Shown here one piece after another: positions 2,467-54,078 of a stretch of DNA of 64,000 nt. A program made the position numbers and the translations under genes. Source of the DNA: a phage; the sequence record OZ413487.1. One strand, 5' to 3'. The first letter of the stretch is position 1. Every line of letters begins with the position of its first letter. Under the pieces are notes generated by a model. It had not been told where the DNA came from, did not search any database, and saw nothing but the letters and a program-made list of their open reading frames with translations.

Positions 2467-4890
2467 ATGAGCATGTGGTCGTTCGACTTTGAGTCATCCG
2501 GTTTGCTGGAAGACCCAGATCTTTATTATCACTGCGGCCTGTTTAAAGAGCTGAATAAGAACCGTTTTATGCTGTTCCTTCCTCTAAATGACCGCACACA
2601 CTACTCCGAGGAGGATATAGAAAAGGCTAAGAACTTCATTCTGGCAAAGAAAACTCTTTATAAAGATTTTGAAGTTCGCATAGCAGATTTTTCAGAGTTG
2701 GAAGGTTGGCTTACAGGAAATTCTGACTGGTCACCAACAGCTTTGAACTGCCATAACTGCTACAGTTATGACTTTATGCTGATGGAAAGATTATCTGGTA
2801 TTCATTTTGATATGTTCCGTGATCCTAAATGTATGGGGACTATCAACGATCACCAGGTTAACCTGTTTGATACGTTGGCGATGAGCCGAATCTTGTGGCC
2901 TGATCGCCCTTTACCAAAAGGTTGTCCGGACTCTGTATTCAACCCGGTTACTAAGAAAATGCAGCCTGTTGGTCCTCACGGCCTTATGGCATGGGGCTAC
3001 GCCCTTGGTAACCAGAAAGTTCAAATTGATGACTGGCGCGATCTTCCGTTGTGGAAGTATGTGGATCGTGTATTCGAGGACGTTATCATCCAGGAGCTGC
3101 TCTGGAAAGAGCTGGTAGCGGAATCAAAAGGTGTATTCTACGGCAAATCTGACATGCAGAACTTTATGTACGATCCGGCCAAAGAGAAGCCGAAAGGGTT
3201 CAAGAAGATCACCTGGAAGAACGCATTACGTCGAGGCATGCTGCAGCACTTCCTGATGGAGCTGCAGGCCCGTCAGGGTGTATACTTCGACATAGATGGA
3301 GCTATTGCTTTACGTGACCGTTGCGATGCGTGGATGAAAGAAATCGCTGATCGTGTTGAACCACAACTACCTTTAAAAGAGCTGTCAATGTCTCAGCGGC
3401 CCAAGTTCCCTGAAAAGCCGTTTAACCAAGACGGGACAATCTCTAATAATGGTTGGAAATGGTTAAAAGATAAGCTTGGCTATCCTGTAGACATGAGTGC
3501 TTTAGAGTTCAAAGCCCTGCCTAAGCGAGCATTTACCTCTACAGGAGATGTCAGCAAGATGGGGATAAAATGGTGTGAAGAGATGGGCTGCAAAGACCCC
3601 GATAAGATGGCTGATTTCTTGAGAGGCTATATTAAGGGCACCTCCACACCACAACCCTTACCTAAAGAGCTGATGGATCAGGCAATAAGTGATCTGCAGC
3701 AGAAGCGAATGCCTGACTGCAAGATACCTATGAAAATCAGCAATCAGGACGACATCAAGCGATACCTAATCAGTGCTGGTTGGCTCCCAACAATGTGGAG
3801 AACTAAAGATGTAACTAAAGACAGCAAGAAGAAAGCTTTACCTGATGCAGATGTTGATGCACGAGTATATGCATATATGGACGAGCTTTTGGAGTCAGAG
3901 TATTGTGACCTAATTATCAACTTCTGGAACAAAACTGATGCTAAGTTCCAGACAACCGTGCACAAGTTCCGAAGCTTTCCTAACTCCGAAAGGATTAAAA
4001 AGGAAGTATTCGGGAAAATACGTAGAAAAGCCAGGGCACTTATTACTTCTCCGCAACTGAAAGATACGTTTGGACACCTATGCCCAAATCTTGAAAAATT
4101 GAACGGAGAGATGGCTAAAGATATCGTCTTGTGGTTATCATTGCGAAACCGCAGATCGGTCCTTGATCCAATCAAGGAGGATAAGGTTGATACTGGTCTT
4201 CTTAATCACCCACGTTTGAAGATTGACCATAAGCTTCCTGCTAAAAGCTCTGGATTAACAAACACTTCCAGACAGAAACACAGTATTTGTGCAAACATGC
4301 CTAAACCATCTCCTAAAGTAGTTATGGGTAAAGAGATGCGTAGTCTGTGGGGTGTTCCTCCAGGATACTTTGAGATCGGTATTGACGGGTCCAACTTAGA
4401 GCAGCTCATCGGGGCTTGGGGTGCCTTTGAGTTCGACAACGGCTTGTATTATGATGTTGTAAGTAACGGAGACGCACACCAAAACAATGCTGAGGCATAT
4501 ACAAAAGTGGCAGGCAGAGAGGTGTCCCGTAACGACGGTAAACCTATCACGTATGGGGTTATGTACGGGGCACAAAAAGATAAAGTTGCAGATATGCTGG
4601 ACATCTCCCCAGAGTTGGGACAAAGGGTAATCGATGCACTCTGGGATGCCAACCCAGGTCTTAAGGGGCGCAAAGAGGATCTGGAGAAATTCTGGGAAGC
4701 AACAGGTAAGAAGTTTATCTACTCTTTTGATGGTCATGCTATCTGGACCCGATCTAAACACTCTTTACTTAATGCATACCAACAAAATGGCGGTGCATCG
4801 TTGTGTGACTTAGTTGGAATACTCATGCACCACCAGATGGTGAAGCGTGGGTGGTACGATGAAGGTGTTCGTCGTATTATTTATTACCAT
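2467..4890 (+). CDS. DNA polymerase, family A, exon 1 (3'-5' exo + polymerase motifs A and B, up to His of motif C)
   Basis: N-terminal exo I motif FDFESSGL; motif A GIDGSNLEQ; motif B RNDGKPITYGVMYGAQ; ORF ends ...RRIIYYH-K-stop where family A polymerases have VHDE. Confidence 0.8.
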
Positions 4891-5166
4891 AAATAACATT
4901 GTGGCTTCATAGAGTAATCTATGTCGAATAACCTCTTTAACTGCGGGAAGCCTAAACCTTATGGCAAGGTAATCCGCAACGAAGCGCTCAAAAGAGCGAA
5001 CGCTCAGAGGCCATTCCGAAAGGAAGTAGACCAGCAAGTGCGGTCGAAATGGGAGGATTCCTGTGGTTGCTTATCATAGGAATATGAGATGGTCCGATCC
5101 TACGTGAAAACGTATGGCTATGCACGTAATGGTGCGGGGTAGCTTAACGACCTACCTGAACTATTG
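4891..5166. other. putative group I self-splicing intron in DNA polymerase gene
   Basis: Exon 1 ends in U (4890); intron ends in G (5166); internal guide CAUUGUGG (4897-4904) can pair with exon-1 end CCAU (P1, U.G at splice site) and exon-2 start GAUG (P10); four in-frame stops; splicing restores YYH-DEYQLQV. Confidence 0.55.
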
Positions 5167-15986: not shown

Positions 15987-16014
15987 TTGACACGCTGCAA
16001 AATTCAAGTAAACT
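15987..16014 (+). promoter_or_regulatory. sigma70-like promoter (TTGACA-16-TAAACT)
   Basis: Precedes gene at 16063. Confidence 0.5.
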
Positions 16015-16062
16015 AGGCACAAAAGGCGGGAATGTTTCCCGCCAACACGAAGGAAAAAGATC

Positions 16063-16687: not shown

Positions 16688-16735
16688 AACACATAAACGG
16701 GAAAACTTCCCAGAACACCAAAAGGAGAAAACATT

Positions 16736-18536: not shown

Positions 18537-18593
18537 TAAAAACACAGGCGGGAAAACTTCCCGCCACTAACAAAGAAAACAGGAGAAAATATC

Positions 18594-22167: not shown

Positions 22168-22196
22168 GTTGACATCTGCCATGGGGTGGGGTAACA
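22168..22196 (+). promoter_or_regulatory. sigma70-like promoter (TTGACA-17-TAACAT)
   Basis: Precedes gene at 22252. Confidence 0.5.
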
Positions 22197-24134: not shown

Positions 24135-24505
24135 ATCCCTGTATGGATCGCCAGTGGTGCGCATAATAGGTATTATGTTAAATTGCCCGTAATGATAACA
24201 GTTCTCACAATGATAGGTATTCTCATTCATCCACACAAAATAGGTTGCAAATGTTGTGCCACTGTGTGAACGGCCTGGCCTATTAATTTCTCTCACTGCC
24301 TCGATATTTGAGAATTGTTATCCCTGTATGGATCGCCAGTGGTGCGCATAATAGGTATTATGTTAAATTGCCCGTAATGATAACAGTTCTCACAATGATA
24401 GGTATTCTCATTCATCCACACAAAATAGGTTGCAAATGTTGTGCCACTGTGTGAACGGCCTGGCCTATTAATTTCTCTCACTGCCTCGATATTTGAGAAT
24501 TGTTA
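24135..24505. repeat. tandem duplication, two ~185-bp units
   Basis: Unit beginning ATCCCTGTATGGATCGCCAGTGGTGCGCATAATAGG... occurs twice head-to-tail, essentially identical. Confidence 0.85.
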
Positions 24506-25564
24506 TAAGAATGAGAAGTATTCCCATTCCGTCCGCCTGGCAGCACTCCTGTAGGTCCTGCAAGGACTCTAGCTGAAAGCTAGACCCTTCGGGCCTCCCT
24601 GTAGGTCAGGTCAAAATCGTGGTAGAATTGGGCCTGTTCAGATATTTCTGGCTGACTCTTCAGGTCTGTGTGGGAAAAGCCAACCTCTCCGGCGGGGCAG
24701 GGGGTCATGACGGGAAAATTGCAGGTCAATTAAAAAATTTACGTGGTGTATGAAGCGCTCTTCAGGTAAGGCATGTATTATGGGATGAAACCCTCTTCAG
24801 GCAATGATATTTGTGGGTGTGATATTTGCTGGAAAGCCAGATATGACGGGACTCCCGGCGGGGATGGGGTAGTACAGACAGGGAAAATATGAGAATGTAG
24901 TTGGGGAAATTGATCAGACAGGTAGAGTATGGAATATGTTACAAGTATGTTAAATATGGAGGTTGAATATCTGTAGGATTTGTGTGTAAAATCAAAGACT
25001 TAAGGGGTGTTGTGGTATTTTCTATAAATAATTCAAGTTTAATAGGCAATATTTGTCTCTATCCGCTTTGTGTGGTAAACAGATTCAGATTAGATTGGTT
25101 TACAAGTGTATACATAATATACAAATTAAAGATACAAGAAACCCCCCTCCCCCTTCGGCTACCATTCACCTTTTCCTCTGACTGGTACTTAAACACTTAT
25201 TCAGACTCTTCAGGTTATCACCCATATATCATATGGCAGTGACTGGTGTCCTCCGGCCCCTCTTTCGTCACCCGTCCGCTTCGCCATGCTAATGCCATAG
25301 CCAATGGTTCGGTTGTTCACTCTGTTCACTCAGGTGTATCTCCATACCCCTTCAAACCGAAGAGAACAGAAAACCCGAATTACTCGGTAAAAGAAAAGAG
25401 AAGAACTTAATTTTATCAGGATAGGCAAGAATGTCAAGGCATGACTGCTCACTAAACAAGCAAACAGTCATGTGTGGAAGGTAAGTGATTGTGGTGGTGG
25501 GAAATTTAGTTGAAAGATGTGTTATAGGTGCTCCCAGCACTTTAGCCGGGTAGCTAATTGTGTG

Positions 25565-29567: not shown

Positions 29568-29963
29568 TTACTGAAACAGTGCGGATAAATTACCTTCTGG
29601 TGGGAACTTATCTGCCAAAAACGGTGTTAGCACAGTAGCCCTCTGAAGATCTGGGGTCCACTCGTTGTTCAGAACATCCCAGTAGTACGCAATGTTGCTG
29701 TGTGGGTGCCGCATTACGAACTTTTTCCCTTCGTAGTCATCTGAAACCTCTACAGAAGAAATAACAACAGAATCTTCAAGGGTTTCTTCATAGAAAGATC
29801 CACCTTCAAATTTCCAACGAGATGCAAGAGCCCCTGCCTTGAACGCTGCAGATAACGGACTGTCGGCAAGAACATACATTTCTTGCACTCTGTCGCTGCG
29901 ATCTTTGCTTCTTACGTTGTATACAGTATCTGAGCTATACTCAACACGGTATAGGCTTACCAT
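29568..29963 (-). CDS. hypothetical protein, paralog of 31770..32168
   Basis: Shared block HPHSNIAYYWDVLNNEWTP vs HPDSRVKHYWNARTKTWTP. Confidence 0.5.
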   Translation of the reverse strand: MVSLYRVEYSSDTVYNVRSKDRSDRVQEMYVLADSPLSAAFKAGALASRWKFEGGSFYEETLEDSVVISSVEVSDDYEGKKFVMRHPHSNIAYYWDVLNNEWTPDLQRATVLTPFLADKFPPEGNLSALFQ

Positions 29964-30924: not shown

Positions 30925-31061
30925 TTAGAGGTCTCCTCAATTATTTGATATTAATAGCCGTAACCTAACACATTAACTACAACTGCGATTGCAAACATAA
31001 TTTCAAAGCATGCAATCTCTACATTTGGGACTAATTTCTTAATCACACCCATTGTAGCACC

Positions 31062-31379
31062 TCATTCTCCAAAGTCAATCTTTACTTTGCCTTTCCCCTT
31101 ACCTTTCTTTCCACCGCATTTAGCCAGCTGACGTGCTGCAACATCTACCATACGGTCAGTTGCCTCGTAAGCATCACTGCCTTTAGCCTTGGCAATAACT
31201 TCTTTTCCAGAATTGTCAAAAATGAACGCCATAACTTCCTGGTGATCATTTTCAACTTTTACACTCACACGTGCATAGTTGGCAGAGGGATGCAAACGCT
31301 CCAACTTAGACATTTTGTGGGAAATGAAAGACACCATACCTTCAGTGATTTCTACGTTGCCAGTGATTTCAATTTGCAT
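31062..31379 (-). CDS. hpf: ribosome hibernation promoting factor / RaiA (YfiA) family homolog
   Basis: MQIEITGNVEITEGM...KLERL...DAYEATDRMVDVAARQLAK aligns with E. coli HPF MQLNITGNNVEIT...KFAKLEQ...DMYAAIDGLIDKLARQLTK; Lys/Gly-rich C-tail. Confidence 0.65.
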   Translation of the reverse strand: MQIEITGNVEITEGMVSFISHKMSKLERLHPSANYARVSVKVENDHQEVMAFIFDNSGKEVIAKAKGSDAYEATDRMVDVAARQLAKCGGKKGKGKGKVKIDFGE

Positions 31380-31427
31380 AACGTGTTCCTTTTAAAGAAG
31401 AGGGAACCGAACCCTCTTTGAAAACAA

Positions 31428-31455
31428 TGATACTAAATCTGAAGCGTTGTGTCAA
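31428..31455 (-). promoter_or_regulatory. sigma70-like promoter for hpf-like gene (TTGACA-17-TATCAT on - strand)
   Basis: Followed in the 5' UTR by hairpin AAGAGGG-TTCGGTT-CCCTCTT (31389-31409) and RBS AAAAGGAA. Confidence 0.5.
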
Positions 31456-31769: not shown

Positions 31770-32168
31770 TCAGTTTAGCTTTTCTTCAACAACCCCATAG
31801 CTCGGGACAGAGTCAAGAGCTTTCTGGTTTAAAAGTGGTGTAGCAGAATCTGCAAACGGTGTCCAAGTTTTTGTTCTGGCGTTCCAGTAATGCTTCACTC
31901 TGGAATCTGGATGCACTATAACAAAAACTTTTTCACTTGTCAACACATTAATTTCTTCCACACCCCTGCTGATAATTTCTCCGTCATATCCCCCGGTCTG
32001 GTATCCTTCGTACCAGGTTCTTGCATAGGCATAGCCAGCCTGCCAGCATGCAGCCTCCTCCGAGGTGGAGACTACGTAGAAGTCTTTCTCAAATTCTGGG
32101 ATACGCCCTTGCTTTACGCTCCAAGCTCCGCGAATTTTCATTGTAACTTTGAATAGTTTATTTTTCAC
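31770..32168 (-). CDS. hypothetical protein, paralog of 29568..29963
   Basis: Shared conserved block (see 29568). Confidence 0.5.
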   Translation of the reverse strand: MKNKLFKVTMKIRGAWSVKQGRIPEFEKDFYVVSTSEEAACWQAGYAYARTWYEGYQTGGYDGEIISRGVEEINVLTSEKVFVIVHPDSRVKHYWNARTKTWTPFADSATPLLNQKALDSVPSYGVVEEKLN

Positions 32169-32180
32169 AACGGTTACCCA

Positions 32181-32435
32181 TCACAGTTCTACAATATCTG
32201 CATCTGACCCTGCCCCAAAGGCATAATAGGACTCTTCCCCGAAATAATATTCCGGTGCACCAGCAGCGATCAGGTCTGATCCCAAAATGAATACCACGTT
32301 GTGGCCTACATAGCTGTGATTTTGCCGCACAGGATCATCCCACGGCAACCCTTCGAAGTATACCGCAGGGACGACCTTTCCTTTCAGGAAGGATTGCCCC
32401 AAGTAGACGTTAGAATCAAGAATTTTAACCTTCAT
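32181..32435 (-). CDS. hypothetical small protein, MKVKxLD family
   Basis: MKVKILD N-terminus and GSDLIAAGA motif shared with 32425..32652 and 36065..36298. Confidence 0.5.
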   Translation of the reverse strand: MKVKILDSNVYLGQSFLKGKVVPAVYFEGLPWDDPVRQNHSYVGHNVVFILGSDLIAAGAPEYYFGEESYYAFGAGSDADIVEL

Positions 32436-32652
32436 GATCGTCCTCCACTATCTCTACATCCTCACCTAGGGCAAAGTTGTAGGTCCACTGACTGTCAAAG
32501 CATTCCTGAGATGCACCAGCGGCAATAAGATCTGCCCCTTTTATTTTTAAAAGGTCAGGGTAATCTTCGTTAGGGACAGCAGTAAACACTTTCCCTACTA
32601 AAGGCTCCTGACCAATATAGAAGCTTGAATCTAAAACTTTAACTTTCATCAA
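32425..32652 (-). CDS. hypothetical small protein, MKVKxLD family
   Basis: MMKVKVLD...GADLIAAGA. Confidence 0.5.
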   Translation of the reverse strand: MMKVKVLDSSFYIGQEPLVGKVFTAVPNEDYPDLLKIKGADLIAAGASQECFDSQWTYNFALGEDVEIVEDDHEG

Positions 32653-53534: not shown

Positions 53535-54078
53535 AGAAATCTCTCTCCTCAGTTTTCTTTATAAACTCTTGCATGTAGGACTCAATAGCCTCATGCTTGG
53601 TGCACTCCGGATCAATGACAAGATTGAGATCTGATTCTGCTCGTGCAATAATCGTAGCTTTAGAGCATCTCCTCAAGAACTTTGTCATATCATCTCTGTA
53701 GTTTTTGTGGAGCGGGAAGTCGCTGTAGTCTTTCTCCAAATAGTCAGCCATCCGGCGCAACGCCTCTGATAAACTGCAATCTGTATACTCGTTACAGTAT
53801 TTCATCCAGTATTTAAGCACATACCCCTCAAAGGTATTAGTGCATTGAGACAAAACACCCCTGCAACGACCAGTCAGATGATCATGATCTAAACAAGGCT
53901 TACGAAGTGGCTCGCACAAGATCGGATCAAGACCATCCTGCTCCTCTGACAATTCTTTTCGAAAGTTGGCTATGTCCTTAGAATCTTTTAACCACCCGTT
54001 ATGAACTGGGGCTTTGACAGCTTTCTTTCTTATTTTACGCTTTGCGATAATCCCTCCAGATGAGCCCTGCCTATCCAA
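53473..54078 (-). CDS. endonuclease VII-like (His-Me finger) junction-resolving nuclease
   Basis: CLDHDHLTGRCRGVLSQCTNTFEG matches T4 endo VII LDHDHELNG...VRGLLCNLCNAAEG. Confidence 0.6.
   Translation of the reverse strand: MDRQGSSGGIIAKRKIRKKAVKAPVHNGWLKDSKDIANFRKELSEEQDGLDPILCEPLRKPCLDHDHLTGRCRGVLSQCTNTFEGYVLKYWMKYCNEYTDCSLSEALRRMADYLEKDYSDFPLHKNYRDDMTKFLRRCSKATIIARAESDLNLVIDPECTKHEAIESYMQEFIKKTEERDFYGDEKGIQSLRLSPDQDEIP

What the first reader, a model, noticed from the sequence alone, without database searches (positions are those of the whole stretch)
31062..31455. Phage-encoded ribosome hibernation factor (HPF/RaiA) homolog with its own promoter and 5'-UTR hairpin
The 105-aa protein aligns along its length with bacterial HPF/YfiA and adds a Lys/Gly-rich tail. 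It sits inside a cluster of small accessory genes and has a dedicated TTGACA-17-TATCAT promoter followed by a stable hairpin before the RBS. A phage copy could silence or protect host ribosomes during takeover.
Basis: partly seen in the sequence, partly recalled or inferred. Interest (0 to 1): 0.7.

Follow-up and report, generated by a model that had tools for sequence, protein, structure and literature searches.

The report
Known rV5 phage HPF homolog

Summary
Window 31062-31379 (-) encodes a 105-aa protein that passes the curated cut-offs of Pfam Ribosomal_S30AE and TIGR00741. It is 43% identical to E. coli HPF and 25% to RaiA. [quoted passage not shown] The TTGACA-17-TATCAT promoter is also real.

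It is not new. The window is a Vequintavirus (rV5-like) phage, and the protein is 100% identical to rV5 ORF144. GenBank annotates both the gene and promoter P144. Mizuno et al. 2019 (Nat Commun) described this protein and expressed it in E. coli. They found it in crude extract but not in salt-washed 70S/100S ribosomes, and it did not change 100S levels.

New here:
- The gene is under strong purifying selection (dN/dS 0.03-0.09).
- It is syntenic in a 64%-identical sister lineage.
- It keeps three of the four universal rRNA-contacting basic residues, but has lost K80, T53 and H55.
- The 5'-UTR hairpin is energetically unremarkable and is absent from the sister lineage.

Function during infection remains untested. 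Low interest: already known.

The parts
31062..31379 (-). CDS for the 105-aa HPF-family protein, stop codon included. Equals rV5 ORF144 / ABI79209.
   Evidence: ORF. PF02482 48.3 bits and TIGR00741 45.9 bits, both above cut-off. 100% identical to rV5 (H34). dN/dS 0.03-0.09 against close relatives.
31116..31379 (-). [quoted passage not shown]
   Evidence: AF2 mean pLDDT 84; elements E2-7, H13-29, E33-42, E47-55, E60-67, H70-88. Foldseek top hits are V. cholerae HPF 4hei (TM 0.91, rmsd 1.0) and ribosome-bound E. coli HPF 6h4n_x.
31062..31115 (-). Residues 89-105 (GGKKGKGKGKVKIDFGE) plus stop: basic Lys/Gly-rich tail, predicted disordered.
   Evidence: pLDDT below 50 for residues 90-105. Net charge +4. 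Within the rV5 clade the tail shows 6 synonymous against 1 non-synonymous difference versus L003. In the sister lineage P0004 it is replaced by a different basic tail. Murica and APECc02 have shorter tails through 1-nt indels.
31427..31455 (-). Sigma-70-type promoter TTGACA-17-TATCAT. Equals rV5 P144.
   Evidence: 11 of 12. Enrichment 33 sites against 2.96 expected. Annotated as P144 in DQ832317 and by PhagePromoter in the Gotham record. The -35 hexamer and 17-nt spacing are kept in the divergent L004, which has TTGACA-17-AATTAT.
31398..31418 (-). 5'-leader hairpin: 7-bp stem AAGAGGG/CCCTCTT with a 7-nt loop, starting about 9 nt after the -10 hexamer.
   Evidence: Fold -9.9 kcal/mol, z -1.03. 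Stem is 9 bp in L003, weakened by an insertion in L002, and absent in L004.
31387..31391 (-). Shine-Dalgarno AAGGA, 7 nt before the ATG.
   Evidence: Read directly from the sequence.

Best explanation
The gene encodes a phage-borne, single-domain member of the HPF/RaiA (S30AE) family. An ancestor of the Vequintavirus lineage acquired it from a gammaproteobacterium, and selection has kept it since. Host RNA polymerase transcribes it from a consensus sigma-70 promoter, together with a block of small early-type accessory genes.

Inferred mechanism:
- Like HPF and RaiA, the core domain occupies the tRNA/mRNA channel between head and body of vacant 30S/70S particles.
- Binding uses the retained alpha-2 basic track (R83, K87, K91/92) plus K25.
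- Binding is weaker or more salt-sensitive than for host HPF, because K80, T53 and H55 are replaced.
- The longer basic tail, like the RaiA tail, reaches toward the RMF site. The protein would therefore give monomeric, reversibly parked 70S ribosomes and would not promote 100S dimers.

The net effect is modulation of host ribosome availability or hibernation during infection.

Shown: gene, family, fold, promoter motif, selection and synteny. Inferred: ribosome binding during infection, the role of the tail and the direction of the effect.
For: Family and fold.

Subtype: closer to HPF (39-45% identity to enterobacterial HPFs) than to RaiA (22-28%).

Residues invariant across the HPF/RaiA/phage alignment include K25, R83, K87 and K92. 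R83, K87 and K91 (aligned to phage K92) are named among the universal rRNA contacts in preprint 10.1101/2025.10.07.680626; K26 (phage K25) is named there only as an enterobacterial HPF contact.

Selection: window versus L003 shows 31 synonymous against 6 non-synonymous differences, dN/dS 0.033. The other close pairs give 0-0.09.

Synteny: the gene sits in the same position in a lineage whose protein is only 64% identical. It is present in 119 phage records.

Promoter.

Expression: the protein is made in E. coli and detected by MS.

Tail: 17 residues, against 7 in HPF and 25 in RaiA.
Against: The one published experiment on this exact protein found no peptides in 70S or 100S fractions after high-salt washing. 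It also found no change in 100S abundance (PMC6375957).

One of the four universally conserved ribosome-contacting basic residues (K80) is V here and T in the sister lineage. The 'invariant' T53 contact is F here and R in the sister lineage. H55 is F, and R17 is V.

The protein scores far below the HPF equivalog cut-off (55.8 against 125) and the RaiA equivalog cut-off (17.6 against 158).

There are no data from infected cells.
Confidence: 0.45

Rival explanations
1. Neofunctionalised HPF fold. The protein no longer binds the ribosomal decoding channel. [quoted passage not shown]
For: Absent from purified 70S/100S although expressed. Loss of K80, T53, H55 and R17. Forms an isolated clade: only two 50%-identity clusters among 1.84 billion representatives, and the next hit has E 2.5e-07. 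Scores below both equivalog cut-offs.
Against: R83, K87, K91/92 and K25 are retained. Overall identity of 43% to host-type HPF along the full domain, with an rmsd of 1.1 A between the model and ribosome-bound E. coli HPF. The high-salt wash in the published experiment could strip a weak binder, as its authors note.
Confidence: 0.25
2. Canonical short HPF. It cooperates with host RMF to convert 70S into 100S dimers, silencing or preserving host ribosomes as E. coli HPF does.
For: Best sequence and structure matches are short HPFs. HPF-like identity of 39-45%.
Against: No discernible effect on 100S when expressed in E. coli. The tail is 10 residues longer than in HPF and differs from the conserved KDKLKQH end. 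Scores below the NF007780 cut-off. Shutting ribosomes down early in a lytic cycle would also hurt the phage (inference).
Confidence: 0.12
3. Anti-hibernation decoy. A weak occupant that is incompatible with RMF competes with host HPF/RMF/RaiA and keeps ribosomes of slow-growing hosts available for phage mRNAs. Mizuno et al. proposed this as a possibility.
For: Suggested in PMC6375957. A remodelled contact surface plus a longer tail is compatible with weak binding that excludes RMF.
Against: No direct data. From my own knowledge, not tested here: rV5-like phages are not reported to replicate on deeply dormant E. coli.
Confidence: 0.15
4. Decaying passenger gene (moron) without function.
For: The last residues of the tail vary through 1-nt indels in a few isolates.
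Against: dN/dS 0.03-0.09. Intact in 119 records. Syntenic in a sister lineage at 64% identity.
Confidence: 0.03

Closest known systems
rV5 ORF144 / ABI79209 ('sigma 54 modulation factor'; the phage HPF of Mizuno et al. 2019, PMC6375957)
   Same: Identical protein, 105 of 105 residues, with the same promoter P144 and the same neighbours.
   Different: Nothing of substance. The window is another Vequintavirus isolate, 99.1% identical to phage WalterGehring over 3 kb.
E. coli short HPF (YhbH; PDB 2rql, 6h4n chain x)
   Same: 43% identity over residues 1-89. Same fold (TM 0.87, rmsd 1.1). Retains K26, R83, K87 and K91 equivalents.
   Different: One-residue deletion at N8/N9 and a one-residue insertion after G58. 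K80 is V, T53 is F, H55 is F and R17 is V. A 17-residue Lys/Gly tail replaces KDKLKQH. pI is 8.7 against 6.5. Below the NF007780 cut-off. No 100S effect reported.
E. coli RaiA / YfiA (protein Y)
   Same: Same domain. The C-terminal extension goes beyond the HPF length. The last residues, IDFGE, weakly resemble RaiA NFVEE.
   Different: Only 25% identity. NF007654 scores 17.6 against 158. The RaiA tail is longer (25 residues) and net acidic (-3), whereas the phage tail is net +4.
Other virus-encoded S30AE proteins (Cronobacter phage GAP32 HPF; phrog_8990)
   Same: Same Pfam family in large myoviruses.
   Different: Too divergent to be found by tblastn at E 1e-5. Mizuno et al. infer independent acquisition. 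The rV5 type has its own family, phrog_12469.
PeSL promoter/stem-loop cassettes of T4-type phages (PMC2839356)
   Same: A strong sigma-70 promoter plus a GC-rich stem-loop in front of small accessory genes.
   Different: In PeSLs the stem-loop mostly lies between or over the promoter hexamers and acts as a terminator. Here it lies downstream of the -10 hexamer, has no T-run and is not flagged as terminator-like.

Membership tests
HPF/RaiA superfamily (Pfam PF02482 Ribosomal_S30AE; TIGR00741) | Profile match above the curated cut-off | tested here: met
   PF02482 48.3 bits against 23.7. TIGR00741 45.9 against 40.9.
HPF/RaiA superfamily (Pfam PF02482 Ribosomal_S30AE; TIGR00741) | [quoted passage not shown] | tested here: met
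   AF2 model with pLDDT 84 and the expected order of elements. The top 35 Foldseek PDB hits are all HPF/RaiA/pY-family hibernation factors.
HPF/RaiA superfamily (Pfam PF02482 Ribosomal_S30AE; TIGR00741) | Conserved basic track on helix alpha-2 that contacts 16S rRNA (K80, R83, K87, K91; preprint 10.1101/2025.10.07.680626) | tested here: inconclusive
   R83, K87 and K91/92 are kept. K80 is V in rV5 and T in P0004.
HPF/RaiA superfamily (Pfam PF02482 Ribosomal_S30AE; TIGR00741) | Binds the 30S decoding channel of vacant ribosomes | not testable with these tools
   Published test: not recovered in salt-washed 70S/100S from E. coli expressing it (PMC6375957).
Short HPF equivalog (NCBIfam NF007780, E. 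coli YhbH type) | Score at or above the equivalog cut-off | tested here: not met
   55.8 bits against a cut-off of 125.
Short HPF equivalog (NCBIfam NF007780, E. coli YhbH type) | About 95 aa with the conserved short C-terminus KHKDKLKQH | tested here: not met
   105 aa with the tail KCGGKKGKGKGKVKIDFGE.
Short HPF equivalog (NCBIfam NF007780, E. coli YhbH type) | Promotes 100S dimers together with RMF | not testable with these tools
   Published: no discernible effect on 100S.
RaiA/YfiA equivalog (NCBIfam NF007654) | Score at or above the equivalog cut-off | tested here: not met
   17.6 bits against a cut-off of 158. 25% identity.
Long HPF (N-terminal S30AE domain plus C-terminal dimerisation domain) | Second, C-terminal dimerisation domain | tested here: not met
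   Only one Pfam family is hit, the protein is 105 aa, and the tail is disordered.
Sigma-70 promoter | -35 and -10 hexamers with a 16-18 nt spacer, in the orientation of the gene, beyond chance | tested here: met
   TTGACA-17-TATCAT. 33 such sites against 2.96 expected. -35 and spacing conserved in L004.
Sigma-70 promoter | Mapped transcription start | not testable with these tools
   No transcript data available.
PeSL cassette (T4-type phages) | Stem-loop between or overlapping the promoter hexamers that acts as a terminator | tested here: not met
   The stem-loop lies downstream of the -10 hexamer, has no T-run, and is not in the terminator-like list.

The most novel reading that the evidence does not exclude
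The rV5-type protein may be an evolved anti-hibernation or ribosome-parking factor and not a plain HPF copy. On this reading, its remodelled contact surface (K80V, T53F, H55F) makes it a weak, quickly reversible occupant of the decoding channel. Its Lys/Gly tail would block RMF. Together these would let the phage dissolve or prevent host 100S/HPF/RaiA hibernation, or shield ribosomes from ribosome-directed defences, so that ribosomes stay available for phage mRNAs.
Probability: 0.15. Interest if true: 0.65.

Novelty: already known. Interest (0 to 1): 0.15.

Why it matters
Phage-encoded ribosome-associated proteins are a recognised class of auxiliary genes. What the HPF copies do during infection is still an open question, and the only experiment on this protein was negative but inconclusive. 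The finding itself adds nothing to the record, because the gene, the promoter and the hypothesis are all published. The residue-level and evolutionary notes made here may help design the next experiment. Those notes are the loss of K80, T53 and H55; the selected basic tail; strong purifying selection; and synteny in a 64%-identical lineage.

Tried and rejected
1. Hairpin as a dedicated regulator. Its energy is not distinguishable from shuffles or from random windows, and it is absent from the sister lineage. Rejected as a conserved feature of this gene.

2. Hairpin as a terminator or PeSL. It has no T-run, is not flagged as terminator-like, and sits in a different position from PeSL stem-loops.

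3. Wider phage diversity. IMG/VR gave only 2 loci. The word-indexed search gave 5 proteins. The exhaustive representative search gave only one further cluster, P0004.

4. P0122, a 1160-aa protein with 8 matching stretches, is a PPC-repeat protein. The match is spurious.

5. Newer functional papers on phage HPF. Four literature searches for phage HPF work found nothing beyond Mizuno 2019 and a 2020 mention (PMC6969025); a search for rV5 with 'sigma 54 modulation' found nothing, and one for the rV5 genome paper returned it (PMC3606486), where one search found promoter counts but no mention of this gene.

6. The label 'sigma-54 modulation factor'. From my own knowledge this is a historical name that comes from the rpoN-operon location of bacterial hpf. 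It is not evidence of a sigma-54 role. No test was made here.

7. tRNA scan of the window: no tRNA genes.

Full report
**What is there**

Window 31062-31379 on the minus strand is an ATG-initiated ORF of 105 aa. An AAGGA Shine-Dalgarno lies 7 nt upstream of the start.

The protein matches Pfam Ribosomal_S30AE (PF02482) at 48.3 bits against a gathering score of 23.7, over residues 3-88. It matches the HPF/YfiA family model TIGR00741 at 45.9 bits against 40.9. Against PDB sequences the best hits are E. coli HPF entries, including 2rql (E 5e-12) and 6h4n chain x (E 2.5e-11), aligned end to end over residues 1-89.

It stays far below the narrower equivalog models. The E. coli HPF model NF007780 gives 55.8 against 125. 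The RaiA model NF007654 gives 17.6 against 158.

A direct alignment gives 43% identity to E. coli HPF and 25% to RaiA. Against a panel of enterobacterial proteins the figures are 39-45% for HPFs and 22-28% for RaiAs.

An AlphaFold2 model built on that alignment has mean pLDDT 84. [quoted passage not shown] Foldseek against the PDB returns V. cholerae HPF 4hei (TM 0.91, rmsd 1.0 A) and ribosome-bound E. coli HPF 6h4n_x, followed by about 30 other hibernation factors.

So is the Lys/Gly-rich tail, GGKKGKGKGKVKIDFGE, which has net charge +4.

**Promoter and hairpin**

TTGACA-17-TATCAT lies at 31455..31427 (-) and matches 11 of 12 consensus positions. It is not an isolated match. The pattern TTGACA-N16-18-TAnnnT occurs 33 times in the window against 2.96 expected, and 0 of 100 shuffles reach 33. 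The sites follow the strand of the local genes. They are on the + strand from 2 to 22 kb and, with two exceptions (1195-1222 on the - strand and 54014-54041 on the + strand), on the - strand from 25 to 59 kb.

The hairpin is AAGAGGG, a 7-nt loop, then CCCTCTT, at 31418..31398 (-). It starts about 9 nt after the -10 hexamer and folds at -9.9 kcal/mol. The z-score against dinucleotide shuffles is only -1.03. Random 47-mers of the window average -6.8 with sd 3.5.

Among close relatives the stem is kept. It is 9 bp in IMG/VR locus L003 and is weakened by an insertion in L002. The syntenic gene of a divergent relative (L004) keeps the promoter as TTGACA-17-AATTAT but has a short leader with no hairpin at all. 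The hairpin is real, but it is not a conserved regulatory feature of this gene.

**Identity of the genome and prior knowledge**

The region is 99.1% identical to Escherichia phage WalterGehring. It is 90-99% identical to 120 of the 121 matching phage records (the remaining one is 80-90%), essentially all rV5-like, genus Vequintavirus.

The protein is 100% identical to rV5 ABI79209 (H34). The rV5 GenBank record annotates it as 'sigma 54 modulation factor', ORF 144, and annotates the promoter as 'Sigma70-type promoter; P144'. Other records call it ribosome hibernation factor, HPF or RaiA.

Mizuno et al. 2019 (Nat Commun, PMC6375957) list rV5 HPF among virus-encoded ribosomal proteins. They place it among gammaproteobacterial HPFs in a phylogeny, and they tested it. 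They expressed it from pBAD24 in E. coli NM522 and detected it by MS in crude extract. They did not detect it in 70S or 100S fractions purified under high-salt conditions, and it had no discernible effect on 100S formation. [quoted passage not shown] They speculate that viral HPF might compete with host factors to prevent dimer formation.

A 2020 paper again notes hpf in rV5 phages (PMC6969025). Further searches found no later functional work. The finding is therefore already known, including its hypothesis.

**What could be added**

1. Selection. Against rV5-clade relatives the gene shows mostly synonymous change. Window versus L003 gives 31 synonymous and 6 non-synonymous differences, dN/dS 0.033. 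Window versus L002 gives 14 and 3, dN/dS 0.050. The tail also shows 6 synonymous and 1 non-synonymous difference versus L003.

2. Depth. An exhaustive HMMER scan of 1.84 billion cluster representatives finds only one other close cluster, P0004, at 65% identity. All other hits have E-values of about 3e-09 or weaker. The phage proteins therefore form a small isolated clade. P0004 lies on contigs of up to about 137 kb. It sits in the same position among the same neighbours, in a phage whose DNA matches Vequintavirus at about 78-82% over roughly 30% of the 6.3-kb locus. The gene thus predates that split.

3. Tail. P0004 has a different but still basic tail, SKSKGIDKRTAKWDY. Two isolates, Murica and APECc02, end early through 1-nt indels in the G/A-rich tract. 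The basic character is what is shared, not the sequence.

4. Contact residues. A 2025 preprint on Gram-negative hibernating ribosomes (10.1101/2025.10.07.680626) names K80, R83, K87 and K91 as the only ribosome-contacting residues identical between HPF and RaiA. It describes T53 as part of an invariant contact with m2G966, and H55/E60 as contacts to the uS9 C-terminus.
   - In the alignment the phage protein keeps R83, K87, K91/92 and K25.
   - It has V at 80 (T in P0004), F at the T53 position (R in P0004), F at the H55 position and V at the R17 position.
   - The binding surface is thus partly retained and partly remodelled.
   - This fits a weaker or altered interaction and offers a possible reason for the negative pull-down. 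That link is an inference.

**Mechanism**

The best-supported reading, with confidence about 0.45 for the whole chain, has four steps:

- Host RNA polymerase transcribes the gene with the block of small accessory genes.
- The domain occupies the decoding channel of vacant 30S/70S as HPF and RaiA do.
- Affinity is lower than for host HPF.
- The longer basic tail behaves more like the RaiA tail, which is incompatible with RMF, than like the HPF C-terminus. The outcome would be parked monomeric ribosomes and not 100S dimers.

The rivals are a neofunctionalised non-ribosomal binder (0.25), an anti-hibernation decoy (0.15), a canonical 100S-promoting HPF (0.12) and a decaying passenger gene (0.03, contradicted by selection).

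None of these can be settled computationally. The decisive experiments are low-salt or crosslinked gradients, cryo-EM from infected cells, in vitro competition with RMF/HPF, and a deletion phage tested on hosts in different growth states.

**Verdict**

The family assignment and the promoter are confirmed. The hairpin is present but unremarkable. The functional interpretation is unproven and partly contradicted by the one published experiment. Novelty: already known. Interest: low (0.15).

Noticed in passing
window 4881-5116 (+): Group I catalytic intron (Rfam RF00028, 64.7 bits, E 4e-14) at the end of ORF 2467-4896. It splits the family-A DNA polymerase gene, and this copy has no homing-endonuclease ORF inside. 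BASEL phage records annotate the polymerase as a two-piece join.
   Followed up: partly
window 16028-16040, 16699-16711, 18550-18562 (+): Three exact GGGAAnnnTTCCC palindromes form GC-rich hairpins (up to GGCGGGAA...TTCCCGCC, -14.6 kcal/mol) 12-14 nt after the -10 hexamers of the consensus promoters at 15987, 16659 and 18509. Together with the HPF leader hairpin and one at 22169, this suggests a recurrent promoter plus 5'-hairpin cassette in front of small early genes. Function unknown.
   Followed up: partly
window 24135-24506 (+), inside the ORF-poor stretch at about 23.1-25.6 kb: A perfect tandem duplication: 185-bp unit, 2.0 copies, 100% identical. It lies in the non-coding region between the convergent gene blocks, which the rV5 paper labels 'non-coding'. 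Other Vequintavirus records align this 851-bp query to about 620-700 bp, which suggests they carry one copy. The duplication therefore seems specific to this isolate or to its assembly.
   Followed up: partly
window 30951-31052 (-): A 33-aa hydrophobic ORF (MGVIKKLVPNVEIACFEIMFAIAVVVNVLGYGY) starts 10 nt after the HPF stop codon. It is annotated as ORF145 in rV5 and is absent from the divergent relative L004. A TTGACT-16-TACAAT promoter-like site (31078..31051) overlaps the HPF 3' end.
   Followed up: partly
window 29568-29963 and 31770-32168 (-); 32181-32435 and 32425-32652 (-): The HPF gene sits between pairs of paralogous small genes. The 131-aa and 132-aa proteins are 28% identical (E 4e-11). 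The 84-aa and 75-aa proteins are 42% identical (E 1e-16). This points to local gene duplication in the accessory block.
   Followed up: partly
public records matching window 31062-31379: Annotation noise. Several records label this ORF 'ATP-dependent protease La type I' (H30, H31, H47, H48). The APECc02 record puts the label 'sigma 54 modulation factor' on the neighbouring 89-aa gene. Eighteen near-identical records are named 'Campylobacter phage' although they are about 98% identical to E. coli rV5-like phages.
   Followed up: no
window 31086-31115 (-), the G/A-rich tract that encodes the tail: Single-base indels in this tract give shorter C-termini in phage Murica (99 aa, ending GKGKAK) and APECc02 (101 aa, ending GERQSKD). 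Some isolates have GNNVEIT, restoring the N8N9 of bacterial HPF. These may be real polymorphism or homopolymer sequencing errors.
   Followed up: partly
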